Positions 1,244 through 32,100 of a DNA stretch of 64,000 nucleotides are shown here, in pieces. Made by a program: the position numbers and the translations under genes. This DNA comes from Tubiluchus corallicola (Eukaryota; Animalia; Priapulida). The DNA lies in assembly GCA_030141605.1 (NCBI GenBank), contig JAQGDQ010000114.1, positions 186,001 to 250,000 of the forward strand. The letters are read 5' to 3'. The notes below the pieces were generated by a model, which was not told where the DNA came from, searched no databases, and saw only the letters and a program-made list of their open reading frames with translations. Each line of letters opens with the position of its first letter. Within the stretch, counting starts at the first letter, position 1.

Positions 1244-1812
1244 GCTAATTCAAATTTCTGCAGCTTACCTAATGTTCACTCAAAAATATTACAAAATATT
1301 ACAAAAGTGATTTTACTAGTTACACGATGTGCGTATTGCAGTTTTATTACTAAATCCTTCTAACATTTTTCGCAAACATTAAAATTTATGTAATACTACT
1401 TAAGACTCCTAGAAGGCTTAGCCTTTCCTTTAACTAGTCTTAAAAAAGTTAAATTGATAAATTTTGATATTTTGTGGTAAATAAGGTACTGTTCTTACTA
1501 TTTTATTACTTATTATGTGAAGTCTGAGCACTGTCTAAGTGATTAGTTACTATAAATTGGAAAAATCTAAATTCTAAGATTTGCCGGCAGTGTCAAGTCT
1601 TTATGCTTCACCTTCACCGTGAAAACAAGTAGGGTTTTTTCTAGTGGGTATAATTGTTTCAATAAACACAGCTAGCAATCACAATTCTATACAATCTAGT
1701 TTACATTTTAAAATTGGTTTAATATTTGAGTAGTAACATTTTTTATTCAATTTTAGATATTGGATTCACTTGATACAAATTTCTTGCTACATATGATTGT
1801 CGGGAGTGTAAT

Positions 1813-2301
1813 ATGGTTACAATTTCACAAGATGGTAAGCAACTTTTAAAAAATGTCATTCGCCATACTGATACTCACAATAAGTTACAAGAAGAGGAAG
1901 AAATGTGGAGAATTCACAGAAAGAGAAAGTACATGAGAAAACACAGAGATTGTTCAAAAAATACTGATGAAAAGAGAACAAAACGTGAAAAGAGGTCTGA
2001 AAAGTCTACAAATTCCAAGCCCAGTAGTTTCTTCTATAGCAGGAAACTTATGGAACTTGAAGAGAATGACAAGGATAGATGGGCACATACTGGGTATCGT
2101 GAGTTGTACCCTGAAGAATTTAATTCAGATCTCACTCCTCATGTTAAGTTGAATTTATCCAAGAAACTGAAGAAAAAATCAAAGGCACATAAAAAATGTA
2201 AGCATAAAAAGTGTGATAAACTGAAGAATGGTATGACTAAATCAAACAAAAAATCCAAACGAAAATCGAAATCATCAACTAAGGAAAAAGTACAGCTGTA
2301 A
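1813..2301 (+). CDS. NKAPD1: NKAP domain-containing 1 (C11orf57-like), 162 aa, single coding exon
   Basis: GKQLLKNVIRHTDTHNKLQEEEEMW and DRWAHTGYRELYPEEF match the conserved blocks of vertebrate C11orf57/NKAPD1; Lys-rich tail; upstream acceptor ttttag at 1751-1756 suggests a 5' UTR intron. Confidence 0.92.
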   Translation: MVTISQDGKQLLKNVIRHTDTHNKLQEEEEMWRIHRKRKYMRKHRDCSKNTDEKRTKREKRSEKSTNSKPSSFFYSRKLMELEENDKDRWAHTGYRELYPEEFNSDLTPHVKLNLSKKLKKKSKAHKKCKHKKCDKLKNGMTKSNKKSKRKSKSSTKEKVQL

Positions 2302-6204: not shown

Positions 6205-6678
6205 CAGTTCAGTGTTTGTCAGAGTTGCAAACACCCAAACAAGACTTTAGTGGTCATTTACTGATATTTATTGAATTCGCAATATTGACGAACAATCTGT
6301 AATCAATATATCTTGACGTTTTTATTGCGCACATACGCGAGTAAAAAGAGTAAAAATGGTGATTGTTCTGTTTAAAATTTGAGACTAGCTCCAGGATAAA
6401 TCTACCAAATTTTCATGTTGCAGTTGGCAAGTTCGTAGCCGATGGTAAACAAAATAGTGGAGAATGACTTGAGATGTTTTTCAAGCTCGACTCTTTTGCC
6501 TAAAAAACTCGGTTCAGTTAGAAAAATCATTAAGGAAGAAGTTGATGTAATTGCATCAATAATAATTTGGTTGGCTTCAATTTTTCATATGACGCTTCAT
6601 AAATTATTTGATCGATAATATATATGCTGTGTATGTACGAAATCTGTCTACTAATCAGTAAATAGCTACAACGGAGTG

Positions 6679-6930
6679 ATGGGTGTGGCTGCAGCTATTA
6701 TTGTGCCGACAATATTTTGGTTGTTGGTTGGTGGTGGCGCTCCGTGGATTGTACCAAAGGGACCAAACAGAGGCATTATACAAACGATGTTGGTTTTAAC
6801 TGCAGTGTGTTGTTATTTATTTTGGTTAATGGCATACCTTCACCAGTTGAATCCATTGTTTGGACCTCAGTTACACAATACTACAGCAACAGTTGTTCAG
6901 ATGGTGTGGGGAGACGGAATTCCTAAATGA
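6679..6930 (+). CDS. ATP6V0E: V-type proton ATPase subunit e (V0 e / M9.7), 83 aa, intronless CDS
   Basis: [44 protein letters not shown] is the diagnostic subunit e signature; ATG at 6679 (the ORF-track start 6676 is a GTG). Confidence 0.96.
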
Positions 6931-7688
6931 GCTGTATCTAGTTCGCAAAAATGCTTTAGTGGTTGCATACTAATTGATCATAATTATGGGCTGGCAATTT
7001 AGTTAGTTATGTATCAAGATTTTAAAAATTTCTGGTGGTTCAACATTGTTTGATTTCTTTTGTTACTTTTTATAATAGGTAATTAATTTTATTATAGTTA
7101 CTATTGATTGTCGTCTGCTCTGATACTCGATGTTGATTAATGTTTTGTACATAAAAAATTCAACCATAATTTCAACCATTTTGGCTTCTTAAAAAGAAAA
7201 GTCAAGTGCACTATTGTATGTAGAATGAACAACTCATGTGGAAGAACAAACTAAACATTTATACTCAATTATCAGCTATTATTAGTTCCTTGTATTATAT
7301 TAGTTTTGTTGTTTCCATTAGATACATGTCTCATTGTGTTTAGTCTTTACTTTCATTCCGTTGGTGCAGTTGGCGTTTAAACTTGTAATGTTGTGTTATT
7401 GCAATATCAGTTTAAGTAGCATTAATCGTATTGCTTCTTTTGTTGTGATGTATGTATGAATACCTCAGAAGGTACAATTTTTTTTGTTTTTTAATTTCTG
7501 TAAATTTAATTAGGAATTATTATTCTCTCAAAGCTTAAAGTTATTAGCTATCCTGTGTTGTTGTGATTTATTCCACACTTATTTCCTGTATTTTAGGTCT
7601 TTGTCATAAGTCGAATCTCATTTGTGCTGTTTGAAAGACTGGACATCTCTTTAGTACAGTTGTGTTTGTCAAGATATTTCCAACTAAA

Positions 7689-8456
7689 ATGGCTTCAGCT
7701 GATTCTGGTAGTATCTATCTAGCAGAAAATTATCATTCCACAGGTGCATGGTTTGAACATTCTCGTTATCAAAGGTACTGGCAACACTACAGAGATGTGT
7801 GGCAATGGTTTCAAGTTCATCGGAACTCTCACCATCTCGTTGACGATGATTACACACAGTTTAATGTAAAAGAGGCTTATGTTAGCTACTGGAAACAGTA
7901 TAATGAATATTTACAACATTATATCCATTGGTTCAATTGCGCGTACTTTCAGCAAATTGGCCCATGTCATGATTTATACCATCCAGTTAATGATGAATCT
8001 TCTCAAAGTTTAGACAGCTTTGTTAGATCAGAACAGCCGTATAGGATAAAGCCAGTCGAATTTCCAACTGACAGTGAAAGCTATCTAAATTCAGATTTTG
8101 CAGTCTCTGATCAGGATGACATGCCACTTGAAATGGAAATAACGGAAGACATGAAAATTTTTTTTGAGATTTCTGAAAAGCATCGCAAGGAAAGAGAACT
8201 AGAAAAGAAACTGCTTGCCGAGGGATCACAGGACAAATATATCTTAGCAGAAGATGTTTCCTCTTTACACATCAGAGGTACAACAAAAGCACCTGCAGAA
8301 CAATTAGGCGCAAAGAGAATAGCAGAAATGAAAGAACTGTATGGAACAGGTGCTGCTATGATACATGGCATGGAAACTTCTTTGCAGCTTACTTTTGATA
8401 GGAACTGTGATCGCAAGCAACCAAAACTATGGCCAAGTATCCCAATAAATTTATAG
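7689..8456 (+). CDS. GEMIN8: Gem-associated protein 8 (SMN complex), 255 aa, single coding exon
   Basis: N-terminal WF..SRYQRYWQHY; MEITEDMKIFFEISEKHRKER; EMKELYGTGAAMIHGMETSLQLTFDRNCDRKQPKLWPSIPINL C-terminus typical of Gemin8; acceptor atttcctgtattttag at 7581-7596; first ATG at 7689. Confidence 0.94.
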   Translation: MASADSGSIYLAENYHSTGAWFEHSRYQRYWQHYRDVWQWFQVHRNSHHLVDDDYTQFNVKEAYVSYWKQYNEYLQHYIHWFNCAYFQQIGPCHDLYHPVNDESSQSLDSFVRSEQPYRIKPVEFPTDSESYLNSDFAVSDQDDMPLEMEITEDMKIFFEISEKHRKERELEKKLLAEGSQDKYILAEDVSSLHIRGTTKAPAEQLGAKRIAEMKELYGTGAAMIHGMETSLQLTFDRNCDRKQPKLWPSIPINL

Positions 8457-10715: not shown

Positions 10716-11059
10716 TCCAATTTTTCACATTTCCTCTCTCAAGTTTTGTATCAAAATTTAATTAATTGTGAGTTTAAAATCCTTACACTGGTTTATTTTT
10801 TTTAAAAATCAAATAATATAAAATTATAGTCTATCAATAAAAATGAACATAGCAAAGTTATTAAAAATTAACAGTGTTAAATTATGAAGCTACCAACAAA
10901 AGATTATTTTTCTTAGTGTATATATTCACGAAAAACAAAGTTTCTTATATTTGGGAAAATAATAATTAAATGGCATTGAATTGTATTGCTATAGTATATA
11001 AATGTTAATTAGTAAAAAGGCCTTTCCTGCTTTTAGAAATTTACAACTACGTTTAACGG

Positions 11060-11309
11060 TTAAATTTTGGCACATACGTGTTCAATATCGTCAATGCAAT
11101 CAATTAATTTTTCTGATTTATCGATATCTTGTGAAAACCAATACTTTTCTGCCCGACTGACAATGCGTGGTTTAGAGCTGGCGTTGGAATTTGACGTCTC
11201 GTAATCGAGGAACAATGTTTTGTATAAGATGAAGCGTGAAGATGGTAGTCCTGACGGGAGAATTCCTGAGTGAATTCTTACATCCATGTAACAGTATGGA
11301 GCAATGTCC
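11060..11309 (-). CDS. Exon 2 of uncharacterised ABM/dimeric alpha-beta barrel-like protein
   Basis: Acceptor actttttacag at 11320..11310; phase-2 join gives (R)DIAPYCYMDVRIHSGILPSGLPSSRFILYKTLFLDY...CAKI*; AATAAA at 10797..10792. Confidence 0.8.
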
Positions 11310-13716
11310 CTGTAAAAAGTAGATAGTGGTATTTCAACAATTTTTCATACACGTTTGGTTTTCTTATCTTATTTTCCAAACAGACTTTCTTTATTCGGAC
11401 TGATTAGACAATTTCTTTGGTTTCTTCACCATCTGACATTTTCGTTTATCCAAACATGGCTTTAATTCGACGCCTGTGTTTGAATACATTGAACTCTACA
11501 ACTTGATGTTTATCTTTTGGTATCTGTATTTGACTATTATATAGTGCTCAAATAATAATAATAATACGTTTGCTACATACATAATCAGTGTCAGTTGTTT
11601 ATCATTTTCAGCCACTATATATTAATTAATTAATTAATTAATTATGCTTTATTGGCTGTTTATTAACACAGAATTTTCAAATATAACTTACATGAGTGAA
11701 CAAGTAGGTGATATAACAAGTATGTCAAAAAAGTTGTTAGACCTGTGTCACACAGAGCTGGACACAATTCATAAGGCGTAGCCATGAGGAGAAAAAGCCG
11801 CCTCATGAAAAATGAACATGTGCTAACCAATGGTCCCTGTCAACACAACTTCAGCCGACTCCGGTTTGCCTACCGTAAGCCATAATCCGCTGTAGGCTCC
11901 TTATAAGCTGGTTTGATCTGTTCATAAGGAGTCTTATTACTAAAATGTATTTGGCCACTAATTTCATTTGCCATAAGGCCCTTTTGCATATAGTGTAATT
12001 AAGTGAAAATTGGCGCAATTAAGCATTTTTATATATAATTCATTTATATTATAAGAATTCATAACACCGATGTACTATATAAGCATTAAAAAGCATTTTA
12101 CCCACAACACTTATTTGTGACTACCGTATTACTTCAACGCACATAAGAAATGTACCCTACATAATCACAGCGACGTTTTTACAGTAATTTTTCTGTGTAC
12201 ATATAATGAAAAAGATATTTTGTTTAACATACCATTTTAAATTATAATCATTTGCCTATATGTAATTAACAATCTCTCTTCGACTGTTATAGACTCCCAG
12301 TGATTTGTCCAACCTGGAGTTACGCGGTCTTTTAACAGTGCTAAAAGCTCAGAAAATGATTGATGGACATTCTAGTGTAGTTTAAAGATTTTTCCATCTC
12401 ACTCTTGATCGTTTGAAACAATGCGCAAATTCTCCTTTACTTCACCTAAGGCATAAATGGGTCTTAACCCACATTGGTCGTTTGCGGTTTTGTTTTTTAG
12501 TACGCCGCATTACGTAATATATAGTGCAGCCGGATCCAGTGGTTAATGCATTTTCGACATTTTGACTGATCATGAAAACTGATTTGTGCCTTCCGCCAAA
12601 AACGGATTACGGGGTTATGACAAAACACCTTACTAATTACACAGATCGAGGCTCATATCGCAGGTTATGACATACGCTTTACGGAAGATGGAAGACGCCT
12701 GACGGATTATGGATACGGTTTGCTCGTTACGGCTTTCTGTGCGACCCGGGTGTTACCGAACGACGGGTTACGTAAGCCAAATTGTTACCATGGAGAAATT
12801 TCGAGGCCCACCCAGTGAAGATAAAACTAGGCAGTCTGTAAACCGCAAATCAGCACGGCAACTGAAACAAAGGAAGAGTACGAGACACCGAATGATGAGA
12901 AATAAAACAGGAAAAACTTATACTAGTCGCATTGACTAGCTCGCGCACAACAAAAAATCTGTATACAGCAAACTATGCGACCCAAAAAGTCTCATACAAA
13001 AGGCACAGCAACTTTTGTATGAAGCAACCTGCGTCATAGGTAACCACAGAACTAGATTTCATTACCCCTATAGTCTGATCAATATGACTTTTTCATTACG
13101 CACATTATTGTAAGAGCGCGCACAAGGGAAGCAGATAGACAGACACAGACAACTAGGATTTTTAACATGTTTGCGTCTGTCTGTCTTTTACCGACGGACA
13201 CAGTAAATTAAGAGCGTTTAATAAAAGTCTGCGTGCGGCAAAGTTAGGAACATTTTTGCTGTCTTACGAGTTATTACACACTTGACGCATTTTGTCTCGT
13301 GTGCGACGGTATTATTTTTGGGGCTTCTCCTCGCGTCCTCCTTGGAGGTGCTAGCGCTCCAGGTAAGTATTACTCTATGTAATTCCTAGGCATGTTAATC
13401 AATTGCATGCTACACAATAAATGTCACTTCACAGGATTTGCGCGCATGCATTTATTGTAACCGCGAACTTTTAGTACAGATTCAGAGACTGAGATGCAGG
13501 AAGCAAGGGAGAGAAAGATGAAGGGGGAATGGTTGTGAATGTCAGACAGACAGAGAAAAACAAAAGGACGAGCGAAAAACAACTAAAGGCGGCGCAAGGC
13601 TCACATTGGCAAGGTATAATCGTTACCGGCAAGCTGGATGCTTCTTCGATGATTTGAACATATAGTCAAAAACATATAGGCCTTACATGTAAAATACTAA
13701 ATTTAGGACTACATAC

Positions 13717-14186
13717 CGCACTGCACAAACGTGTATTTGAGAGTTCTTCCAGTTGTTAATGGACTGCATTGTATTGAAAATGACCAAATTTCCCCAGTTC
13801 AAACTATTCTTCCATCGGCTCACAGATACGTACGCTAAGACGCCAGTACCTTTGCAAAGATCTGTTAACAATTCAGTGTCTATCTCCCAGAGTTTAGTCT
13901 TAATATCATGTGTTCGAGGAAGCCTTGTTTGACCAATAAAGCCTACGAATGCTAACTTAGCTCGTGCGACTTCTGTGAAGGCGGACAAACCTTGCGGAAA
14001 ATAGGCCCTTCCTTCTCTTCCATCTGGCAGACTAATCGCTTCTAAAAGCGGTTCGTTATTGTTGATAAACGGTTCTAACTTGCGCGATTGCTGCATATAA
14101 TTCAAGCATATGTGTTGCTTTACATCTTCTAAATAGTAAAAATCATCCCGAATTTCACATATTTTTGGCAAAACTATGGAAGGCAT
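13717..14186 (-). CDS. Exon 1 of uncharacterised ABM/dimeric alpha-beta barrel-like protein (239 aa spliced)
   Basis: ATG at 14186, long open frame, donor CG|GTATGT at 13716; motifs LAFVGFIGQTR, GVLAYVS, NWGNLVIF, NNWKNSQIHVCAVR; a further upstream exon via the ctag acceptor at 14215/14214 is possible. Confidence 0.8.
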
Positions 14187-16453
14187 ACTATTCGGATAAC
14201 ACAATAGTATAGGCTAGTTTAAAATGAAATATTTTTCAATTTTCTGGCTTAACATAAATCTGTATAACGATTATGCAACTTAGTGAAACGCTATAAATAT
14301 GAACGCTGTGTAAACGTTTTATGAACTACAAACACGTTGATAAACCATCTAGAATGCACTAGAATGTTTCACGTAAACAGATATAGCGCAGACCGCTAAA
14401 ACTGAGAACGTGCCAAGCTTTTTGCGAAATTGCGCCTCAGTTTCTTACTAGAACGTTCAAACTTTGTAGTATAGGAATTTGGTACTTAGCCTCAGGTGTA
14501 ATGCATTTGTCACTTAAGCTGAAAGTACGCAATGTTCTCAGGCTAGGTAACAACAACATGTGTTTTACACTCAGGTGCGCCCCAAATTTTCTTCGTATGA
14601 GCAAAAACGTCTAGCAGAAGCAAAGTTTAAACCTAATTCCTAATGGGACCGACGACCTCAAATGGACATCGGTCACACGGGTTCTCAACACTTCATAATT
14701 TTCTGTTATTTATTTCATGGAATCTGACAAAATTTGTAAGTTGTTTCTGCACTTCGTCCAGAATCTGATTCTAATAAGATATTTTAACGCAAGGTTGATC
14801 TCTTAAATGAAGTTTTACACTCTCAACAGTAGTGAAAGCAAGCAAGATTTATTGTTACTATTTACAAAAAGATTCTTCTCACATTGAACCAAACTTTGTA
14901 TTGAAGTACTGATAAAAAACAAGACGCGTCTTTGCTGGTTTTGTTGTTATTAAGTGTTTCACAGAAGATTGTTATAATGGCGTATTATTCGGTGTGTTTA
15001 GTTTATCTCCGAAAAATAAGTTTTTATCTAAATTCGCATACAATTATTCAGGATTTTTATTTGTCATATTTTATTGGAAAGAAATAAACACTTGTCAGTG
15101 ATGAGTGTCAACCAACCTGCCCTGGAAAAGCCAATATCGTATTTTCGTAGTATTGTATTCTTTTCTAACTGTAGCAGTCATGTCCTACAACTGCACTCTT
15201 GGAAAAATGCGTTGTGCATTCACGAATCGATATTGCACCTGGGTCAATGATACTTCTAACTTATATTAAGAGCAAACATCCTATAGGCAGCCTGCCAAGT
15301 CATAAGTACAAGGTCATAATTTAAATATAACTTCCAGGGTGCCAGATTCCATTCAGTAAGTTTTTCCAGAACATTCTAAGTAAATATTTTTCGATGTTAT
15401 GGTGTGTGACTTTCTTAATACTGACAGATTAACTTGTTCTTAGAGGAATATCGAAATCTGTACTGCTATATCTAACACAACTGAGTTTTCTTCAATATCT
15501 GAGATAAAATAATAAAGTAAAATTAATGAATCAAGTAATAAGAATTAGTATTAAGAATGGAATAAAAAATAAATAACTGAGCAAAAGAATTTTGTGAAAT
15601 TTCAAAGAAAAATAAAAAAACAATACCTAAAATAAACATAAATAAAGTTCCTGTTTATGTAGAATATTCAAGAATAGCTTAAGTAAGTTTAGTACAATTT
15701 AATGTTCTTAGGTAAGTGAAGTGATAAACGTTCTTTTTGGCAGCACAAATCCATCTACATCAAAATTTATAATTTTATGCTTAATTTATAAAATACAGTA
15801 ATACCTTGATGTTTAAAACAGATACAATATGGTCTTTATGGTGAACTATAAAAATCTTGTATAAAAACCTATTAAAAAACCAAATGAACCAAAAAGAGGA
15901 GAAACATAAAATGTTACCTACTATGCAGAGAAATAAAGATGTATAAAACGAAAATTTCCTCAATTATGGTGTGACTGTATCTATGAAACTGTCATAAAAT
16001 CAGCAAAAACTACTTTAAGACTTTTATAGTAACAGACATTGCCATAAAGCATTTGCGACTGATACTTCCAAGTTCATGAAGTAGCTTGATATGACATTGA
16101 ACGAAGACCTTTACAATTTACCATATAACTTTACGAGTGACAAGCTGTACATCGTACCAAGTTTAAGTCAGCCACCTTTTAGTGAGATCACTTATTGTTC
16201 ACAATGCTTTGTATGTAAGTAATGCCTTATATATTTCCTCAGTTCTTTGTTCATCATGTCCATTATATAAGTTCCTGGTTTTTCAAACCTATCCTAACGC
16301 AGTATGGTAATATGATGTTCTTTCCATTTATAGTTTGTCATTAGGATGCACTTTCTTTCCATTTTAGCTTCATTGTTTCTCATTTCATGGTTGATACCAC
16401 AAGTAAATGCTCTATCTGTGGCAAAGTCCTTCACTTCAGAATAAGGAAACTTC

Positions 16454-16583
16454 TCACTTTACAACTTTGTCCCACCTCCATATTGTTGCATCATCACAGA
16501 CAACAATTAATGTACTCCCATCACGATTTAAACTGGTTTGTCGAATTGCACAGTTGCATTTAGGATGTTTGAGAACAGTACAC
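16454..16583 (-). CDS. EED: EED coding exon 11 (last): [42 protein letters not shown]
   Basis: Matches the EED C-terminal WD repeat; acceptor tgcatag; TGA at 16456..16454. Confidence 0.95.
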
Positions 16584-18135
16584 CTATGCAAAAAACATAA
16601 CATGATAGTTCTGTTGAAATATATCATGATAAATTTACATTCATCTACATTTTTACATACTTTTACATTTTGTTCTATTTGGCAGTTTGTTCTGATAAAA
16701 TCACCTACTCAAGGCATATCCTGCTTGGGAAAGTGCTCAGTAATGAATCAAAATGAAATGTTAGTTGATCCTAGGTATGTTTTTGGAATTCTGGTAGCTT
16801 TTTGGCATAAAGTGCAATTAAACCACTGGTGCATTATTAAACATGTATTACTAAATTATAACATGTTATAGTGACACTTGTTCCAATCTTATTTCTTACT
16901 ATAACACAATGAAAGTAATGGAGCATAGTGTGGCCAGTTGTGAAGATACACACACGGGATTCATGCATATGTACGTTGTAGTCTTTACAACAAATAACAA
17001 GTACTTCAAATCAAAAGTACAGTTAACTGAAAATAAGACATAATCATTTTATGCTAAGGTGAACCTAGCCATATATAAAAAATGCTAGTTAGCTACCATT
17101 ATTCCCACTATGTGTTCTGGTATCCGTTCATAAACCATAAATTCATACCCACAAACAAAAGTATAACCAGAAAAAACAATGAGCTTGCAGGTGCATTATT
17201 TATTATCTCTCCTATAATAAACAGGGACAGCCAAAAAAGATGATGTCGAATGCTTATATACGTGTGACGAAAAACTTAAATATCAGTAAACTAGGAAATA
17301 CTTTGCCAGACAATCTGCACTGTTTTGTGTCAGGTCAGTATAATGACAGACTTGGACCTGTCACAGAACTTGGAAAGTTATTATTATCATATTAAGTTTA
17401 ATTGAAAAAACTTATGTAATTAAAGAGAAAATTCTTAATAATTTAAAATGCTTGCATCAACTGGTAAAACGTCACTATATTACCATACCAGTGTTCACCA
17501 CTAGCTCATCAAAAAGCATGCTATTAACAATATAAGGTAATCCAGACTTTTGCTTAGTTGGCAGAGAGTATGCTACAAATGCTCTAATTATTTTTCAAAC
17601 TTTAGGCAATGTTATCTAAACTTGTTTCAAATGATTTATCGTTAAAATGGCTGCGCGGGAGGTGTTCAAAATTATAAGTTTTATGTGGTGTTGCTGGGGG
17701 ACAAGCTCTGAATGTAACAAGGAAGCAAGCAAGTGATTTAAAATTTTCAAGACGACTTTTTCAAATTTATTTATGAAGAGTATTTTCTTGTACTTTAAAA
17801 AATAGTGAGCAATGTATTAATGCTACCGCTTCAGCCAAGCGAAAAACTTATGTTCCAGCAATAATTTATTAATTACATTTTTATTAGGCCTTTAACTTAA
17901 TGTTACTGCTACATTTAGTTATCTTTCAAATACAGTATTTTGTTGATGTATGAGTAAATAAATGAATGAATAAGCCAAATTATAAGCACATTCCTGTAAA
18001 TGTCATCTCGCACGTATTTAAACTTGAACGCAATGTTAGGCCAACAAATGGGCACTGAAATTGCAGGTGTTTGCGTACTTAAATGTTGGCTTGAAAATGT
18101 AATAATGCCCTTCTGAGACTTGCCATGGTCATAAT

Positions 18136-18263
18136 TATAAAGAAGATAAAATTCTTTTTAAATCACAAAAACTTTTATTTTTCAGTGACGAAGTCCATAA
18201 AGGACGAAAAGCTTCTGGAAAAATAAGTTTTTGAGACTTAAAGAGCACTTTATCTTCTTTATA
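18136..18263 (+). ncRNA. Degenerate minimal hammerhead ribozyme motif inside a ~128 bp inverted repeat (Penelope-like pseudo-LTR remnant)
   Basis: gtgacga-a-gtcc-ataaa-ggac-gaa-aagctt-c at 18185-18215, flanked by inverted arms; first core base is G, not C. Confidence 0.5.
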
Positions 18264-18984
18264 CTTAAATGTAGTGGAAGTCATTCGGCAAACAAATTTT
18301 CTTAATTGCACATCACTACTATTACACCACTATTACCCTTTAAGATTATTACCAGCGTTTGCAATTTTTCGGATTATTTAAAATGAAGAGATTGAGATCG
18401 GGATCATAACTGACCTATTAAGACCCTGCCGAGATCGAAACTGATAAGTAGCTGATAAACAACCAAACTGATTTGGAGAAACTGGTCTAAAAATAGCACA
18501 GAACGCTGCATAATGCATATATATTACTTCGCCAGCTGGTTGGCGGAATTGTTTGTAATAATTATGGAGATGTGCAAATATCCAGTCATGAAATAAACTG
18601 CCACTTTGCCACAAGCTATCCTAGATGTAGCAATCCCAAATGCTTTTTTGGTGTTTCTTGACTATCCCACTGTACTGATCCCAAATGCTTCGCTTCAAAG
18701 TCTACTCTAGACAACTCTACAATCTATGGCATGCAAAAACTTTGTCTTGTGCTATCTTCCTATACAATTACAACAATGTCTATGCTTCACATGACTCTAC
18801 AGTCTGCAGACTGTATAATTAGTTTTTGTAGCCTCTACTTATTGTGGAAAGGTATAATGTTAGAATTGCTTATCAATGTTATCATGACCACAGTTGTCTT
18901 GATTCCCGCTGAGACCTTTAAAAAAGCTATAATCTCAGTGATATCGAGATCGGTCTTAGTCTTGGTGCAAACACTGGTCTTTAC

Positions 18985-19058
18985 CTTGCCAGAGAAGGGT
19001 CGTCCACGTCTATATCCCAAACAAATGTTTTCCCGGACTGGTTGCCCAAGGCCACAGC
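18985..19058 (-). CDS. EED: EED coding exon 10: AVALGNQSGKTFVWDIDVDDPSLA(R)
   Basis: 74 nt, tttcag acceptor and GTAAAG donor; homologous to human [21 protein letters not shown]. Confidence 0.95.
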
Positions 19059-19423
19059 CTGAAATAGAGAATGTTACAAGGTCAAAGTGTGGTGTTAATT
19101 CAACATAATTGTGATTCAATATCAAATAAGCTTGAAGGAACTGATAACTAATATTGCAGCTGTAAAGAAAGGTTAATAATGGGAACCACAAAGACTAAAA
19201 TGATTGACAAAACGTTTGTTATTTATATTGTAATATTAATAGTTATTTTGTGTATTAGACACTATGACATCATATAAATCTCAATAGTATTCTAGTATTC
19301 TTTGCTATTGCAGAGTCATTAAATTAGATTAGATTTTTATCTATATCAGAGGAAAGTCCCAAAATAAATTTATTTTATGTAAAGCATCTTCCATAAGCGA
19401 CGTAACCACTAGATGACACGCAC

Positions 19424-19582
19424 CTTTTGCCAAAAATCTAGGGAAAATCGCATATACCATATATCACATTCTTTATACTCAAACTGGTATAGTATGCTAA
19501 CATTGTTGTCTGTCCGTTTAATAGCATCAAATGGCTGATCTAGTCGACCTGGTTTCCAGCAGACTATTTTGTTATCACAAGA
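19424..19582 (-). CDS. EED: EED coding exon 9: [12 protein letters not shown]...[15 protein letters not shown]
   Basis: 159 nt; contains the WY aromatic-cage residues (human W364/Y365). Confidence 0.96.
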
Positions 19583-19788
19583 CTGCAAAAAAAAACGAAT
19601 AAAAATGAAGTTTTGGAAATCAACCAAAATTTATAATTTACAAAAATTCTCAGGTATACAAAATAAAAGACTAGCTTATGGTGAATGAGAAATATGCAAA
19701 TTTTATCCATTAGACTGATACAGACAGGTTCACAAAATAACATAAATTAAAGAACAAATGAAGAAATGATATGTTAATTATATGGCTA

Positions 19789-20765
19789 CAGTAGGCACCG
19801 CTTAATGGACCCACGGTTAATAGATTCAATCACTTAACTGACTCAAAAACACCTGGTACGGGCAGCTTCTATTCAAATGTACATAAAAACTGTCGGTAAT
19901 TGACTCAAATAGCTCCGCATAATTGACTCAATATTTTTCGTTCACATACTTAAAATAAGACATTCGTATGTGCCCAAAGAACCTTTCCTACTTTTATGTC
20001 ATCTTTACTTCCTTTTTGTGCATTATAATATATGTAGAAACAATAATCTTAAGTAAGGGCCTACCGTTTTGTTTGTAAGCAGGTACGTTTATCATGCGCT
20101 AATATGCTAGTGTAGCGATTTTGCTTTGAATCTGTTACCAGCTTGTCCACTGCAAGAATTTCTGGAAGCTAAACATTTAATCACTTGTCTAGCAATTTCC
20201 TTTTGAAGCTCTCGTTGCAAATCACGCTTTCACACTTAATCAGTTAACAGTCAAAGATGCAGGTACGGTAATCAGCCAGCATCAGACAAAATCACTTGTG
20301 AGGAAACAAGGACACCACACCAACTGCAGCTTAAGCATGGCAAGCACAAAATTTTTTTTACGAGAATACGTACATCACACAGCAACAGATTTTCAACGTT
20401 TTATAATTACGAGAACTTTGTGAGCCAACTTCTTCACAAGAAAATGAAGCCGCCGACTTTGGAGGAATTTTTGTAATTTTTGCAAATAAACAGACTTGTG
20501 TGATTTAGAAAAGATTAGGCCCTACTCTTTAATTTATTGCTAATTCATTTAAAATAAATTAATATTTTAAAATAGTTTTCTTTACAATTTTTAACTGCAC
20601 AAAGGAATTTAGGCATTGCTTCATTTCTAAAATTCATTAAAAACATTTGCAGTACTTGCTAAGCTGATGATTCATACTTCTATATCAGTAATACTACACC
20701 AATTGGTTAATAGGTTCAGTCGGTTAATTGGGTCCCAAAGTGAGTCTATTAAGCGGCACCTACTG
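19789..20765. mobile_element. Tigger/pogo-like MITE in an EED intron
   Basis: TA|cagtaggcaccgcttaatggacccac ... gtgagtctattaagcggcacctactg|TA; imperfect ~26 bp TIRs with TA duplication. Confidence 0.85.
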
Positions 20766-21651
20766 TACTTTCACTTGCTAGTTGCTACAATAAAGAAATT
20801 ATACTAATAAAATTATATTTATAGTAGGGGCTGGAAATTCGTTATATAACCCTGGCATATTTTCCTTCTACACTGATCAACCCGCACATGGAAACAGATG
20901 AACACAAAATAGAATGTAGCAGTTACTGTAACATTGTGTATGTGAATCGTTGAATTGGAGTGATAAATCGGTGTACACCCATGCTCTTGTCGCAGTTTGG
21001 ACTGAATTACGTTAACTGCTGAATCACAATCTACTGCTGAGCTGGAAAGATATATCTACCTGCACCTCGCCCTTGATGGACTGAACTGTAGTGTCAATTA
21101 ATACATTACTTAACTTGAAAATGAGCTGTATGCGACTTAACATATATTGTTTTTGATAACTTAAAATTGAATTATGAACTTTCTACGGTGTTTAAATGAA
21201 ATTTTTTGAGTTCTCATACCAAGTTCTCAGCTCTTTGACACCTAAAGAAGACTAAGGAAGCTGAATTCCTAGTGAATTAATATTACCCAGGACAGTGAGC
21301 TGACAGTGGAATTGCGGAATGATATGGCAGCAAAAAGTTAGCTAATTGTTTTTGTCAGGACAATGATGTTGGCTTAGTGACTCAGTTTTTTGTCTCCAGG
21401 TGGCTTTCAGCATGTGGTCAATACATGAACAGATGATAATCGAATAGTATTTTATAGTAAAAAATATATGAAGCTTTGAACAGTCGATTATTCAAGCACC
21501 TCCCTAATTTATACAGCTGGAAATACTAAAGAATGATGCTCTGACAAGAAGCGTTTACAATTTGCGATTATGTAATAAATTTAAAGTGGGACAGCTAGAG
21601 TTTGTGATGATACATACTTGAAGGACAGAAAATGTGAAAAAGTTGCAATAC

Positions 21652-21795
21652 ACCTGAGCTTGAGCCAGGGACATTCTGCTTACAAGACAGACGCTCTAGA
21701 CTACTAGGCCATAGCATTTGCCAGCAATCAAGGCAGTCCAAAATTTATCCCTTATAGCTGGCCAACCAAATTCAGTGTTTCCAATGTTAGAATTA
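21652..21795 (-). mobile_element. Second copy of the tRNA(Thr-TGT-like)-headed repeat
   Basis: ttctgcttacaagacagacgctctagactactagg...caaggcagtccaaa...caaccaaattcagtgtttcca aligns with 10522-10640. Confidence 0.6.
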
Positions 21796-21889
21796 CTAGA
21801 GCGAGTCTAACTAATTAAGTTTTATCATTTAATCATCAATATTTAATCTCGACATTAAGATTATAACAATTGGTTAGAGTTTGCTTTAC

Positions 21890-21995
21890 CTTTGACAAAA
21901 CAAAGTCTCCCAACCATCGAACACAATCAACATAGTTGCGATGAATTTCCCTCGTTGAGAAGTTTGGAAAATGCTGATAAACGGATGCAAAACTC
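21890..21995 (-). CDS. EED: EED coding exon 8: (R)[35 protein letters not shown]
   Basis: 106 nt, canonical [14 protein letters not shown] motif. Confidence 0.96.
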
Positions 21996-23036
21996 CTAAA
22001 AACAAATATAAACAGTCATTAGCAAGGTGTACTTATGTTCATCCCATTTTAGAATGTAAATACAGTCAAGGGGCATTAGTTCAATGAAAGCTATGAATTG
22101 GTTTGATGGGTTAAAGTCATTGCATTATTTAGTAAATAAGCACTAGCTTGCTGAAACATCTTCTGCTTAGGTTATTCATCAATCTCATAAAGCACGAATT
22201 CATGAAGATAGAAAAAAGCCTTGATTTTATAGACCTCCGAAATGCAAGCTTAATATCTTGATTACTAGACTACTCAGTTCTTGATAATCAAAGGACATAT
22301 GGTGCGTCGTACAGCAGAAAGACTGAAAAATGGTGCACCACCAGTTCTTGTGTGGAACGTTGGAATACAGCAACAACTGTTCATTTAACAGTCTTGAAAT
22401 TCAAAGAACCTATTTTGCCATTCCACAAGTCCTTTCCACCTACATTTAAATCAATTATTTTTTTTTTAGAATTTTTTGCATAATCACAGTCTTGTATGGC
22501 AAACACATTCACAAGGCTGCTCGGCTACAGAATTCACTCTGTCATGTGCCACATTTCATGTTTCATGCCGAAAGGCTAATTAGGCCATAAACTCCAAGTT
22601 TCACGCATTATTTTCATTTAAACATTGAAGTGTAGGAGATCAGTACTCAGTAGCTCCTATTCCTCTAGACAAGAGAGATTCCTAATGGGAGTCTCTAATG
22701 CTCATTGTTTATGGTGCTGATTGTGAAGATAATGATAAAGATAGATCATTATAGATCAATACATATAAGAAATATAACAATGTATTAATATTTGTATTGT
22801 GTTATTATATGTATTACTTGTTTGATGTCATTTGTAATAGGTGTGTTAGTTTTATATTGAAATGTTTGTGCTTGATGTTGTTTGTATTGTTTATTTTTTA
22901 ACTTAACACTGCTGCAAACATGAGTAGTTTTGTCTGGTTATACATGATCATTTTAATTGTGTAATACATATTAGTTGTAAATCTATAAGAATTACAATAA
23001 AGAATTTTATATACATAAATTTATACAAAAAAATAA

Positions 23037-23076
<40 letters not shown>
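23037..23076. repeat. (CA)n(TA)n microsatellite
   Basis: Seen directly. Confidence 0.9.
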
Positions 23077-23758
23077 GTAGTATGCCTCTATTTGCAGGCT
23101 GAAATATTCATAAACAATCATAGTACTGTATAAATGAGAAAATGTGAAAACATGACTCCTATGTTTCTTTGCGATCTATAATTTTGAAAAAACAGTGTAA
23201 TTAAAACATTAATGATTAATTAAATGCAAAACTGCAGTCATGAAAACTTTCTGAATTACTTTTCTTTATGTCCTTTAATTTTTTATAACACAGCACTAAA
23301 GCTATCTAGCAACTGTTTCAACAAACCAATGCTCTATGAATTCTGGCCTGTGGTATATAATAAACAATCAAATGCTCGGTGAATTTCGGCTGCGGGCATA
23401 TAATACACGAGGAACCGAGGAGAATTACTGAGACAAAGAAACAGTTGAGTAGTCATGGTATGTACTTAATGACCAAAGTTTGACATTGCTGGCTCCTGGC
23501 CAGTAAATGGATGAGTTACTAACGTAAAAAAAGTTTCTGGGTAGCTTCACCTGCCATACTGCCTTTGGCTACTTACCTTGCTTAAAGAACGCAGTATAAG
23601 CATCCAACTGCAATTAAGATACCTCTGCTGGTCTAATATCTAACCTTAGAAGATTATTCTTCATAACAAACTTGATATCATACATAAATTTCATTTATTT
23701 AAAGTGGACTGAATTATAATTACAGTTTTGATGCACATTAACATGTAAGTGAATTAAC

Positions 23759-23892
23759 CTGTTTGATTTGCTCGGCTTATACTCATACGATGTGCGAATT
23801 GCTTTCTGGATTCGTTCTGTGTCGATTTTCCAAACCTTTAGTGAATGGTCCATTCCACATGAAATCACCCTGCTGCCAGTTAAATCAAAATC
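23759..23892 (-). CDS. EED: EED coding exon 7: [44 protein letters not shown](R)
   Basis: 134 nt, SCGMDHSLK motif. Confidence 0.96.
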
Positions 23893-24172
23893 CTGTTAGT
23901 TAAAATTGAATAAATTAATGCATTAATCATAAATAATTGTTATAAATCTTGAAAAATTTTCATTGCAAATTTCAACCTTTGTCACGGAATCACAAAGTTT
24001 GAATAAATTGAATATGGTACACCATGATATGTGACTGAAAGCTAATAAGCAGCAGCTCACAGTATTACAATCGCTATGCAGCTATGTTCAACGCCCAAAA
24101 TAAAAAAAACAGGGATTACTTTTGTTTCTGAAAAATCATTACAGTCATACAACAACATTGAAATAAACATAC

Positions 24173-24264
24173 AGCACTTAAAACCTCATCCCTATGCCCT
24201 TCGACACCTCCGAATACTGCAACAAGCTGGTCAGTTTTCGTATTCCACAGCCGCAAACAATGAT
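24173..24264 (-). CDS. EED: EED coding exon 6: (D)[30 protein letters not shown]
   Basis: 92 nt, [14 protein letters not shown] motif. Confidence 0.96.
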
Positions 24265-25510
24265 CTGAAATTATTCAAACATGTTTCTCATTGTGCAGTT
24301 TTACATTACAAATTCACAAGTTGTATTGTAAGTTTGCAGATATTTGCCTAGTCTAAAAAACAACACTATTACTGGCAAGTAGCCAAAAAAATACTAAGCT
24401 TTTAGGAGCTCTATTGTCAAAATAAATTAGCCCATATATTGAAATACTGAACATGGCTACTATGCTTTTAACAAATTCCTCATGCAAAAATAATTTTTCG
24501 AAAACCCTAACCACGGTTATAGTAAAACCTGTATAATCTCTTACGGTTATTACGAAACTCACTAGTACAAATTTCCATAAACACATTTTTATCTGAATAA
24601 GGAGTCAAGGTACAGTTTTTAACATTTGGCTCATTCTAAAATAACGTCATACCATGTGCTGCACTAGCTAACTATCGGTTTGTCTAACAGGAATCCAGCA
24701 ACAGCAAGATTCTCAAATTTTGTGTCTGCCCGGTAAGCTTGGTATCGAGGACAAAAGCTATTGATGCTCACTCTGCCAGCAAAAACTGCCAGACTTACAC
24801 ACATGGCAGAAAACTTTTTGATGCCATTACAGTTTATTCACCAAGTGTTAACAGGTATTAACATATGTCGTCATTTCTACCTAGCTGAACAACTGATCAG
24901 TAATGTGATTATATTGACTTCTTTCTGTACTGCATAGTAACTTGTTCATAATAATCACAAGTTGTATCTTAAACCTACAATTCTACATACATCTCAGATC
25001 AAGAGCATTCAAAACAGACTACAACCAAATGTTAAAGCACAAGAAAATCCTGTGCTCTTCATTACATACATAAAGCTAAAAATATTTGCCTTCGAAATTT
25101 TGTATCTGCCTTATTGCACACAAAGCTGGTTTAGCAGCGACGCTATATAAAATCTGAAAATTGAAACTCCCGTAACGCCAGATACATTTAAATTACACTG
25201 CGTAAAGTTTGAAAAAATAATTAGAGCATGTATAGCACACACTTCACTGATGAAGCAAAAGTATAGATTACTGTATCTTGTCAATGAGATTAAAAATACA
25301 TTTTTAGTGAGTCAGTAGTAATGCACACTGGAAAGGTAAGTCAGTGACATTTTACTAGTTGGTGTGAACACCTTATAAATTGCTAAGAATTGAAAGAATT
25401 TTCTTTTATGTTATGCAAGTCTTCCAAGCAGGTAAGCGTAAAGCTAAGTAATATAACCTTGCCTGGAAAGTTTTTAGGACATACTTGCCCTTTCTTCACC
25501 TTTAAAAGTA

Positions 25511-29128: not shown

Positions 29129-32100
29129 AATTCAATTCAATTCAATTATTTATTATCTCCGTTAGAACGATAAAAATACAGTATAAAGAATACATGGAAT
29201 ATTTTGAAGCAAAGGAGAAGGGCAGCGAAGAACCCGTAGGTTATCAAGTCAGCCACCCTTAAATAGTTATGATTAAATAAACTTAATTATGGCGTCGTTA
29301 TCAATTTAAATTTGTATTCGGTTGATGTGTGTTAATTTGGCAATTGAATGATAGGTATCGTAATACTGTAGAACATATAGTTTAAATAACGAAAGATTTA
29401 CAATTCTAAAATACTATGAATCATGCGAAGCAAACACAATAAAAATAACTTGAGATTTTTAAGATAACAGAATATGCATAATTTGAGCATTAACTAAAAA
29501 ATCCGGCAAAAAAAACAAAAAACGGTAGAATGATCAACCAAAGCTGTCGAGAAAAAAATATAATAGATTAAACCAAGGAAAAATAAGGCAAATATAAATC
29601 ATACAAAACAAAACAAGAAACAGAAGCAAATAAGAAAAACAAAACTGAAATGTTGTAATAATAACACCAATGACTGAATTTGTTGAGAAAGAAAATATAA
29701 TAAATTAAACCATCGAAAAACTATTTCAACTGTAAATCAGACAAAATGAAATCAAAATATAACAAAAACTTAAACAAAATCTTTAAGTGTCGTAGCAATG
29801 AAAAAAATATGTATAGTATTACAAGTATATAAGCAAAATGTCTCATTTATTTGTATCCTGCAATAAGTTGTTTTTTATAGTTTAAAATTAACTTTTTGTA
29901 GTTACTGGACTTTAACTGATCTGGTAATGAATTCCACAGCAAAGATCCTTTGTGTTTTAAAGAATTCTGGCCTTTAGATGAGTTAAATCTTTCAATAAAA
30001 TAAGATTGGGTTGTAGCAAACCTAGTAGAGTGGTGATGCATGTGACATGCTAAAGTATAATAATTGCTGAAGAGATCTGGAAGTGAATTATTTTTGAATT
30101 TATGTACAAACTTGAGCAATTCTAATTTATACAGATCATGAACTTTTACTAGATTTAGTTGCAAATACAAAGGTGTTACATGTTCCCTTTTGCTAGTAAA
30201 TGTTATAAGTTTGATAATCTTGTTTTGTTTAGAAACCAATGATTTTAAGACCGATGCTGAAGCACTACCCCAGGCGAGAATGCCATAACTCAGATATGGC
30301 ATGACAAGAGAAGAATATAAGAGCCGTAGTGCATCTACATTTATGTAGTGTCGTATTCTAGCTAATACTCCACTTAATTTGCTAATTTTGTTGACTATAT
30401 GCTGAACATGTGTTTTCCAAGTAATTCTACTATCTATAAATATACCAAGATATTTGATTTCTTGTGTAGATTGAATAGTACAACCTCCCATATTTATGTT
30501 TAAACTATTGTTATGTTGCTTGTTTCCAATTAACATATATTTTGTTTTTTTATAATTTATCGATAGCTTATTTGCTTGCATCCATTTATTAATACCATTT
30601 ATTTATTAATTGTCCAGTTCCACATTTACTGAATGTTCTAATGTTTTGATATTTTGGTGTGATAAAAATAAGTTTGTATCGTCTGCAAACAATCTGGTGT
30701 TAAATTGCGAACAAGATGGCAGATCGTTAATATATAAAAGAAATAACAATGGACCCAATGTAGAACCCTGTGGGACACCACAGGTTATATCAGCAAGTTT
30801 AGATTCCGATGAGTCAATAGACGTAAACTGTTTCCTATTAGTAAGGTAAGACGTGAAAAGCGCAAGAGGACGTCCCCTGATACCATAGTATGATAACTTA
30901 TATAACAAAATGTCATGTTGTACCGTGTCGAATGCTTTCGATAAATCTAAAAATATAGTACAAGTAGTTTTCCCCTTATCAATATTCGCCAGGAAGTTTT
31001 CAATTATTTCTGACACAGCTAAAGATGTAGAATGATTTTTTCTGAATCCAAATTGGAATTTAGTTAAAATTTGTTCTTTTAAAAGAAATTTAGCTAGCCT
31101 AGAGTAAATTAATTTTTCAAAAATCTTTGATATGGGAGATAAGAGAGATATTGGCCTATAATTAGTGGGATTAATGGGAGAATCAGATTTGTAAATCGGG
31201 ATTATTTTTGCAATTTTCAACACGTCAGGATAGATACCCTCTTCTACACATTTATTGAACAGCATAGTTAATAATGGAGTAATAATGGACTGTGAAATTT
31301 TAAAAAACTGATTCGAGATGTTTTCGGGTCCTGCTGATTTATTGGTTTTCAATGCAGCAATAGCAGAGGAAACTTCGTACTCGATAATTGGCGCAAAAAA
31401 GAAGGAGTTCTGATTAGGCATTCTAAGGAAAGAATCAAATGTTATTGGAGTAGGTGGTACCTTTTTTACCATATCAGAACCAACCGATGCAAAATAATTA
31501 TTCATGAATTCACAGATAGCAGGGGGTTCCGTAATCTCAGCATGATTTATTACTAGTTTGGTTGGAGTTATGCGCTGCTTGTTTTGTCCATTGATCAAAT
31601 CATTCAATGTTGCCCAAGTCTTTCTAATATTAGTTTTATTATCATGTAGTAAAGTACAATAATAATTTGTTTTGGCTAAATTTATGAGATGATTAAGTTT
31701 ATTAGAAAATTGTTTATATTGATTAATTTTTAAGATACTAGTTGTAGTCTTACAGTCCTTGTATAATCTACTTTTAGTTTTTATTGACACAAGAATACCT
31801 TTAGTTAACCATGGCTTGGAGAAAGTTACTTTTTCAGTTCTTGACAATGTCTTAAGTGGGGCATGTTTATTAAGAACTTCTTGATATATTTGGAAAAAGG
31901 TACAGAAGGCAGAATTAGTTGGCACCTCGGAAAAGTCAACAGCATCAATCTTATTTTGCAAATCCTCCAGAAATAAAGTCATGTTAAAATTCCGTTTATC
32001 CCTGATTTTAATTTTCTTTTTAACTATTAAGTTACCAATATTTTTAATAATAGCAAACACTGGTAGATGATCCGACACTTCATAAAGTATAATACCAGAT

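What the first reader, a model, noticed from the sequence alone, without database searches (positions are those of the whole stretch)
11060..14186. Two-exon gene for a bacterial-looking ABM/dimeric alpha-beta barrel protein between GEMIN8 and EED: candidate horizontal acquisition
Seen: two ORFs listed separately in the ORF track splice cleanly (donor CG|GTATGT at 13716, acceptor tttttacag|G at 11310, phase 2, 2407 nt intron) into an uninterrupted 239 aa protein, with an AATAAA downstream. Known: the segment GVLAYVS...NWGNLVIFNTMQSINNWKNSQIHVCAVRDIAPYCYMDVRIH follows the beta-strand / W-x2-S-x2-H-x2-A helix / Y-x2-V-R strand pattern of antibiotic-biosynthesis-monooxygenase-like (ABM, heme-degrading/aldoxime-dehydratase-type) barrels. 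Inference from recall, not a search: the motif order FVGFxGQxR - D..L...L - GxLxYxS - WGNLVxF - W..S..H..A...xPxxYxxxRxHxGxLPxG - LxxTxxxDY resembles an uncharacterised family I associate with soil bacteria (Chloroflexi/Actinobacteria), and I recognise no vertebrate or fly orthologue. The spliceosomal intron and the embedding among conserved animal genes argue against contamination. The His of SQIH is a candidate heme or catalytic ligand.
Basis: partly seen in the sequence, partly recalled or inferred. Interest (0 to 1): 0.8.

Follow-up and report, generated by a model that had tools for sequence, protein, structure and literature searches.

The report
Ancient bacterial-type enzyme gene in invertebrates
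This two-exon animal gene belongs to an unnamed protein family also present in molluscs, annelids and amphioxus, so it is not a recent bacterial import; it was likely taken from bacteria early in animal history, and its bacterial relatives' neighbouring genes suggest it likely helps break down betaine-type compounds.

Summary
The splice is real: 470 + 250 nt around a 2407-nt GT-AG phase-2 intron give 239 aa. A public protein matches it at 205 of 239 residues across the same junction.

It is not a lineage-specific transfer. Named relatives occur in bivalves, gastropods, annelids and amphioxus. All 20 of 20 unspliced relatives break at the same intron site. The animal-type proteins form one side of a 100/100 branch and are not nested in bacteria.

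The only other relatives found are bacterial (Chloroflexota, Actinomycetota), so an ancient transfer is plausible but not shown. The predicted core is an ABM-type ferredoxin fold (Z 8 animal, 11 bacterial), with no Pfam family.

New lead: in 80 bacterial loci the gene sits beside sarcosine-oxidase-like genes (35), homocysteine methyltransferases (24, partly BHMT-like) and a signal-less AioX-like binding protein (44). That protein keeps the arsenite-site cysteine in 38 of 38. Best reading: a likely cofactor-free enzyme of betaine-type catabolism. An arsenobetaine role is the bold reading. Heme binding is untested, and the IsdG triad is absent.

The parts
13717..14186 (-). Exon 1 coding part (ATG at 14186; residues 1-156 plus 2 nt), holding most of the ABM core and His152
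   Evidence: family match E 7e-34 with a profile lacking P0001
11310..13716 (-). Phase-2 GT-AG intron, 2407 nt, five codons after His152; same site inferred in 20 of 20 unspliced relatives
   Evidence: a DNA contig spans the donor unspliced
11060..11309 (-). Exon 2 coding part with stop: last ABM strand (Tyr164, Arg168, His170), a further beta-hairpin and a poorly conserved tail
   Evidence: E 6e-10
10792..10797 (-). AATAAA, possible polyadenylation signal (weak; expected by chance in this DNA)
7635..8456 (+). Neighbour: GEMIN8 open frame (context only)
16354..24266 (-). Neighbour: 3' exons of EED (context only; upstream of the gene on the same strand)

Best explanation
This is a two-exon nuclear gene of an unnamed family shared by molluscs, annelids and amphioxus, likely acquired from bacteria once in early animal history, whose protein has a predicted ABM-type ferredoxin core and likely works as a cofactor-free enzyme in the breakdown of betaine-type (methylated onium) compounds. 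Proposed mechanism (inferred): a BHMT- or MttB-type methyltransferase or a sarcosine-oxidase-like flavoenzyme removes a methyl group; this protein then binds the reactive demethylated product in the cleft between its sheet and helices (Tyr119, Asn133, His152, Arg168, His170, Asp103) and oxidises it with O2, as cofactor-free ABM oxygenases do. Shown: gene structure, family, shared intron signature, one animal clade, bacterial gene neighbourhood. Predicted: fold. Inferred: direction and date of transfer, cleft residues, pathway, and that animals kept the bacterial function. My odds by step: real gene 0.97; one ancient animal lineage 0.93; bacteria-to-animal transfer 0.55; betaine-type pathway in bacteria 0.65, in animals 0.45; cofactor-free oxidation as the chemistry 0.3.
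For: Splice and close spliced relative. Of 38 representatives hit, 29 are animal-type, 8 bacterial-type and 1 false. Of 18 animal-type clusters looked up are named, all bilaterian: Mytilus (2), Pinctada, Magallana, Haliotis, Patella, Owenia, Capitella, Branchiostoma. 20 of 20 relatives lacking exon 2 stop or turn to unrelated sequence exactly as a phase-2 GT intron at His+5 predicts. Tree: 27 animal-type against 25 bacterial-type rows, 100/100, in all of 200 bootstrap trees. Fold: pLDDT 87; ABM/Dabb proteins fill the lists. For the bacterial model, the cofactor-independent oxygenase SnoaB (Z 10.9, rmsd 2.3, 95 aligned), LsrG and RslO4 (both 10.7) rank above IsdG (8.7), HmoB (8.4), MhuD and OxdRE (8.2). 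Neighbourhood of 80 loci: AioX/PhnD-like 44, DAO-family oxidase 35, homocysteine S-methyltransferase 24, MttB 4; 8 of 13 groups at 60% identity have an oxidase or methyltransferase. Identities: N-methyltryptophan/sarcosine oxidase, SoxB/SoxA and MttB; BHMT E 5e-57. Partners recur in at least four gene orders.
Against: The tree is unrooted and the animals are sister to, not nested in, the bacteria, so it gives no donor or direction. 9 of 18 looked-up animal-type clusters have no name and 10 were not looked up, so cnidarians, sponges or protists could be among them. The eukaryote census rests on one exon-1 phmmer search and word-indexed profile searches. The 80 loci are the best 80 of 140 found with patterns from 14 related bacterial proteins; one group holds 30 and another 27 of them, and no chance control for the neighbourhood was run. 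Animal model Z is only 7-8, which the tool calls common; a shared fold shows no function. No partner gene lies in this window. Two loci have histidine-catabolism genes next door instead (L012, L016). Cleft assignment comes from strand alternation, not from coordinates.
Confidence: 0.35

Rival explanations
1. Recent, lineage-specific horizontal acquisition from a soil bacterium, with a newly gained intron.
For: Bacterial relatives score almost as high as animal ones (102 against 114 bits). No vertebrate, insect or nematode was named among the hits.
Against: Named orthologues in three phyla; the same intron site in 20 of 20 unspliced relatives; one animal clade at 100/100 with P0001 inside it.
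Confidence: 0.03
2. Vertical inheritance from early eukaryotes with many losses; no transfer into animals.
For: The animal clade sits on its own long branch and is as deep as the bacterial side. Many animal-type hits are unnamed.
Against: All 9 named eukaryotic clusters are bilaterian, although the collection includes NCBI, UniRef and EukProt entries. The three nearest Atlas clusters are 86-100% bacterial.
Confidence: 0.3
3. A heme enzyme of the aldoxime-dehydratase type: His152 binds the iron and His170 acts as the distal acid on a small N- or S-containing substrate.
For: His152 is invariant and lies on the second helix, where IsdG and OxdA place the heme His (PMC4835899). His170 is kept in 109 of 110 bacterial and 10 of 11 animal rows that cover it. 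Atlas leads under 0.9 include DUF4188 and Dehydratase_hem clusters. OxdRE is listed at Z 8.2.
Against: No Pfam match to PF13816 or PF13826 in 132 members. Heme proteins rank 2-3 Z below cofactor-free ABM proteins. The IsdG Asn is absent, and Trp146 is kept in only 19 of 110 bacterial rows.
Confidence: 0.2
4. An organoarsenic module. After a BHMT- or MttB-type enzyme demethylates arsenobetaine, the cytosolic AioX-like partner holds the trivalent arsenic product through its cysteine, and this protein oxidises it to dimethylarsinoylacetate. Marine invertebrates would use the gene for their own arsenobetaine turnover.
For: The partner's best solved relatives are AioX and ArrX (E 1e-25 to 1e-16), ahead of PtxB and PhnD. 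It keeps six of seven AioX pocket residues, including Cys106 (38 of 38) and Asp210 (35 of 35); Cys106 is absent from PhnD (PMC5908839). Microbial demethylation of arsenobetaine to dimethylarsinoylacetate by a methyltransferase is described.
Against: No arsenic-resistance family (ArsR, ArsC, ArsM, Acr3) appeared among the 35 + 123 neighbouring ORFs scanned. Tyr88 is not kept. The paper says pocket residues alone do not fix the ligand. How common this cysteine is among unrelated PF12974 proteins was not measured. No animal partner gene was tested beyond this window.
Confidence: 0.12

Closest known systems
ABM / ferredoxin alpha+beta barrel superfamily (Pfam clan CL0032): SnoaB 3kg0, LsrG 2gff, RslO4 7bio, Rv0793 1y0h, 4npo
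   Same: Predicted beta-alpha-beta-beta-alpha-beta core at residues about 78-175; Z 7-8 for the animal model, 10-11 for the bacterial model.
   Different: About 200-240 aa rather than about 100: an extra N-terminal helix and hairpin and a C-terminal hairpin. 3-15% identity; no Pfam or NCBIfam family.
IsdG/IsdI, MhuD, HmoB heme oxygenases
   Same: Same core fold; invariant His on the second helix. HmoB-like chains align over part of the N-terminal extension (3fj2, 4ae5, 4kia).
   Different: No Asn on the first strand; Trp not conserved across the family; His is 6 residues after the Trp, not 10 (triad from PMC4835899).
Aldoxime dehydratase OxdA and the DUF4188/DUF3291 branch
   Same: A His on helix 2 plus a second conserved His 18 residues later (21 in OxdA); weak Atlas leads; Z 8.2.
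   Different: No full tandem duplication of the domain is evident, no Pfam match, and heme is untested.
msp130 (bacterial gene acquired before the bilaterian radiation; PMC11878542)
   Same: Same evolutionary pattern: patchy marine bilaterian range, shared intron positions, bacterial sister family.
   Different: Unrelated protein and function; for the present family the range outside Bilateria is not settled.

Membership tests
Ferredoxin alpha+beta barrel (ABM/Dabb) superfamily | beta-alpha-beta-beta-alpha-beta ferredoxin-like domain | tested here: met
   Predicted models only; fold searches (best Z 11.1, rmsd 2.1, 97 aligned)
Ferredoxin alpha+beta barrel (ABM/Dabb) superfamily | Barrel closed by two domains (dimer or tandem repeat) | not testable with these tools
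   No coordinates or interface available; the monomer has four extra strands that might close a barrel (inference)
Pfam ABM (PF03992) | Profile match at the family cut-off | tested here: not met
   0 families for P0001; 1 of 132 members at E 0.083
IsdG-type heme oxygenase | Asn (strand 1) - Trp - His triad | tested here: not met
   Strand 1 is V81-G82-F83-x-G/S85; Trp146 in 19 of 22 animal and 19 of 110 bacterial rows; His spacing differs (triad)
OxdA aldoxime dehydratase | Proximal His on helix 2 with distal His and Ser | tested here: inconclusive
   His152 and His170 conserved; position 85 is Ser in 91 of 110 bacteria but Gly in 21 of 22 animals; geometry not inspected; the place of OxdA's distal His on the last strand is recalled
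OxdA / IsdG heme proteins | Binds heme | not testable with these tools
   Needs a titration
Horizontally acquired animal gene | Integrated in the host genome with spliceosomal intron and host neighbours | tested here: met
Horizontally acquired animal gene (recent) | Best matches are bacterial and the gene nests inside a donor clade | tested here: not met
   Top matches are animal; sister, not nested
Horizontally acquired animal gene (ancient) | Absent from non-bilaterian animals and other eukaryotes | tested here: inconclusive
   9 of 9 named clusters bilaterian, but 9 looked-up clusters unnamed and 10 not looked up
AioX/ArxX/ArrX binding proteins (bacterial partner, not the animal gene) | Pocket Tyr88, Cys106, Tyr131, Ser161, Ser163, His192, Asp210 | tested here: inconclusive
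   Six of seven kept in all rows covering them; Tyr88 in 0 of 38 (residues)
AioX/ArxX/ArrX binding proteins (bacterial partner, not the animal gene) | Periplasmic, encoded with sensor kinase and regulator (XSR cluster) | tested here: not met
   The frames begin just before the first strand with no signal-like leader (by eye); it lies beside the ABM gene in all cases

The most novel reading that the evidence does not exclude
The family is the missing oxidation step of arsenobetaine catabolism. Bacteria pair it with a cytosolic arsenite-type binding protein and betaine demethylases, and early bilaterians captured it by horizontal transfer, giving marine invertebrates their own enzyme for organoarsenic osmolyte turnover.
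Probability: 0.1. Interest if true: 0.85.

Novelty: new variant of a known kind. Interest (0 to 1): 0.5.

Why it matters
It defines an unnamed enzyme family, in no Pfam or NCBIfam model, kept by marine invertebrates since before protostomes and deuterostomes split, and not seen among the named hits in vertebrates, insects or nematodes. If the transfer holds, it joins msp130 among the few bacterial genes fixed near the base of Bilateria. The bacterial operons turn a 'hypothetical protein' into a testable step of betaine, sulfonium or arsenobetaine metabolism, which bears on osmolyte and arsenic handling in shellfish.

Tried and rejected
Contamination: rejected (intron, host neighbours, animal orthologues).

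RNA evidence for this gene: no RNA holder listed. Run X2 (RNA by guess, same species label, a few percent divergent) covers EED and V-ATPase e but neither this gene nor GEMIN8; this blank is no evidence. X1 may be the source sample and is not independent.

No whole genome is held, so paralogues and partner genes could not be sought beyond the window.

Homodimer prediction with heme riding along: no verdict, score 0.07, alignment not used.

Sequence searches of the PDB: nothing meaningful. Viral fold library: no match at E 0.001. Viral contigs: 14 pattern hits, none a relative. Plasmids: no match.

GTDB scan with P0001 gave only L001, judged a chance word match. P0012 is a repeat artefact and was dropped from all counts. 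0 of 301 genomes from that genome's phylum matched, without a positive control. A DUF3291 search gave no loci to compare.

Tree rows: 27 of the animal-type and 25 of 125 bacterial-type proteins (thinned at 55% identity); near-duplicates and fragments were left out, and 17 animal rows lack exon 2.

Papers: ten searches found no description of this family; six locus or accession ids gave 0 papers. Supplementary tables of HGT screens were not seen and could list it. Earlier-findings look-ups by sequence, nearby place and words were empty.

Full report
1. Observation. On the minus strand, exon 1 (14186-13717, 470 nt) and exon 2 (11309-11060, 250 nt) flank a 2407-nt GT-AG phase-2 intron and give 239 aa. 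Exon and intron GC are alike (0.41, 0.40, 0.38). Each exon matches a family profile built without the close relative, and nothing else in 1509 window frames does. A Logan protein, P0001, is 205 of 239 identical and continuous across the junction. It was used as the stand-in for all full-length searches, the fold and the tree. Neighbours are GEMIN8, V-ATPase e, an NKAP-like frame and EED. Unchecked earlier notes call the genome likely priapulid; I did not test this. If right, the family spans all three bilaterian superclades.

2. Family range. A phmmer search with exon 1 over 1.84 billion representatives gave 38 hits: 29 animal-type, 8 bacterial-type and one repeat artefact. Of 18 animal-type clusters looked up, 9 carry names, all bilaterian: Mytilus (2), Pinctada, Magallana, Haliotis, Patella, Owenia, Capitella and Branchiostoma. 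Nine are unnamed and 10 were not looked up. A profile search found 284 proteins; of the 120 listed, five are named Ktedonobacteraceae. The three nearest Atlas clusters are unnamed bacterial ones, mostly Actinomycetota and Chloroflexota. No Pfam or NCBIfam family covers it.

3. One ancient animal gene. Twenty relatives lack exon-2 sequence because they were called from unspliced DNA (inference). All 20 end or lose similarity at His+5 in the way a phase-2 GT intron requires: a residue with a G-ending codon, then a stop or a T-initial codon (two stop one codon earlier, which also fits). I read these from protein ends, not from DNA. In a maximum-likelihood tree of 52 rows, animal-type and bacterial-type proteins are the two sides of one branch at 100/100. 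P0001's best matches are molluscan, just ahead of the best bacterial one. A recent or lineage-specific transfer is therefore rejected. The tree has no root and no nesting, so it names no donor. The case for an ancient transfer rests on the lack of any named non-bilaterian eukaryote, which is incomplete. The pattern parallels msp130 (PMC11878542; abstract and section 8 read).

4. Fold. The model of P0001 (pLDDT 87, pTM 0.86) has an N-terminal helix and hairpin, a ferredoxin-like core (strands 78-87, 116-123, 131-137, 164-174; helices 93-112, 140-163) and a C-terminal hairpin. A bacterial member has the same order of elements. ABM/Dabb proteins fill all lists: Foldseek has no hit under E 0.001, and Z is 7-8 for the animal model and up to 11.1 for the bacterial one. 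There, SnoaB, LsrG, RslO4 and Rv0793 rank above IsdG, HmoB, MhuD and OxdRE. Invariant in 132 rows: V81, G82, F83, Y119, N133, H152; nearly so: D15, R60, D103, W131, Y164, R168, H170, T188. The window's protein keeps them all. By strand alternation, Y119, N133, R168 and H170 would face the helix-side cleft with H152 (inference, no coordinates). The IsdG triad is absent (PMC4835899, parts 1-3 of 6 read). An OxdA-like His/His pair is possible but untested.

5. Function from bacterial context. Eighty metagenome loci were fetched (best 80 of 140). Neighbours by tblastn: PF12974 protein 44, DAO-family oxidase 35, homocysteine S-methyltransferase 24, luciferase-like 9, DddP-like M24 7, deaminase 7, MttB 4. 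Grouped at 60% identity there are 13 groups: PF12974 in 5, oxidase in 6, methyltransferase in 4, MttB in 2; three of the four groups with none of these have under 400 nt downstream. Typical runs are gene-oxidase-BHMT-PF12974 (L038 type), MttB-oxidase-PF12974-gene-oxidase (L002) and MttB-oxidase-gene-cyclodeaminase-SoxB-SoxA (L010). The oxidases are sarcosine/N-methyltryptophan-oxidase-like. The L038 methyltransferase is BHMT-like; the one in L032 is closer to the homocysteine S-methyltransferase model. This points to demethylation of betaine-type compounds (established roles of BHMT, sarcosine oxidase and MttB, from my knowledge). No chance control was run and the sample is clumped.

6. The arsenic lead. 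The PF12974 partner has no visible signal leader, is closest to AioX/ArrX among solved structures, and keeps six of seven pocket residues including the AioX-specific Cys and Asp (PMC5908839 passages). Arsenobetaine demethylation to dimethylarsinoylacetate is described in microbes (passages of 10.1101/2024.05.21.594793 and PMC12608789). Against: no ars genes among the 35 + 123 ORFs scanned. These came from a subset of loci; one search took 123 of 155 candidates from 34 of 80 loci, the rest being already scanned or judged shadow frames. The paper also warns that pocket residues do not fix the ligand. I hold this reading at about 0.1.

7. Verdict. This is an old, conserved invertebrate gene of an undescribed ABM-fold family with a bacterial sister group, likely an ancient acquisition, and likely an enzyme of betaine-type catabolism. 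It works like a cofactor-free ABM enzyme by fold; it is not a member of Pfam ABM or of the IsdG family by the tests run. Ten paper searches (listed under Tried and rejected) found no description; supplements were not seen. Interest 0.5.

Noticed in passing
L002-L081 (e.g. L038:8908-9717 +, L014:5123-5938 -, L002:3237-4028 +): A signal-less PF12974 protein whose best solved relatives are AioX/ArrX and which keeps the AioX Cys106 and Asp210 in every row covering them. It is the most constant neighbour of the bacterial family (44 of 80 loci, four gene orders) and may be an unrecognised cytosolic binding protein or enzyme.
   Followed up: partly
L038:7853-8890 and related loci: Soil-metagenome genes much closer to mammalian BHMT (E 5e-57) than to methionine synthase, in a four-gene run with a sarcosine-oxidase-like gene.
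   Followed up: partly
L012:804-2483, L016:6561-10275: Histidine-catabolism-type genes (aromatic amino acid lyase; urocanase and an amidohydrolase) next to the family gene, hinting at methylated histidines as another possible substrate class.
   Followed up: no
window 6655-6930 and 7635-8456 (+): V-ATPase subunit e and GEMIN8 each lie in one unbroken frame, about 700 nt apart on the same strand.
   Followed up: partly
window 1774-2301 (+): Lysine-rich frame with an NKAP domain match (PF15692, E 3e-10).
   Followed up: no
window 29847-33056 (-): Endonuclease/reverse-transcriptase-like frames of a non-LTR retrotransposon (816 and 251 aa, one stop between them); named by eye from the translation.
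   Followed up: no
window 11733-11869, 17118-17718, 19522-21324: High-copy repeats, judged from very high summed contig depth in run X1; a 20-nt insertion allele lies in the intron at 13604.
   Followed up: no
P0003, P0007, P0176: Mytilus has at least two paralogues, and the M. coruscus model P0003 carries an internal repeat of the core.
   Followed up: no
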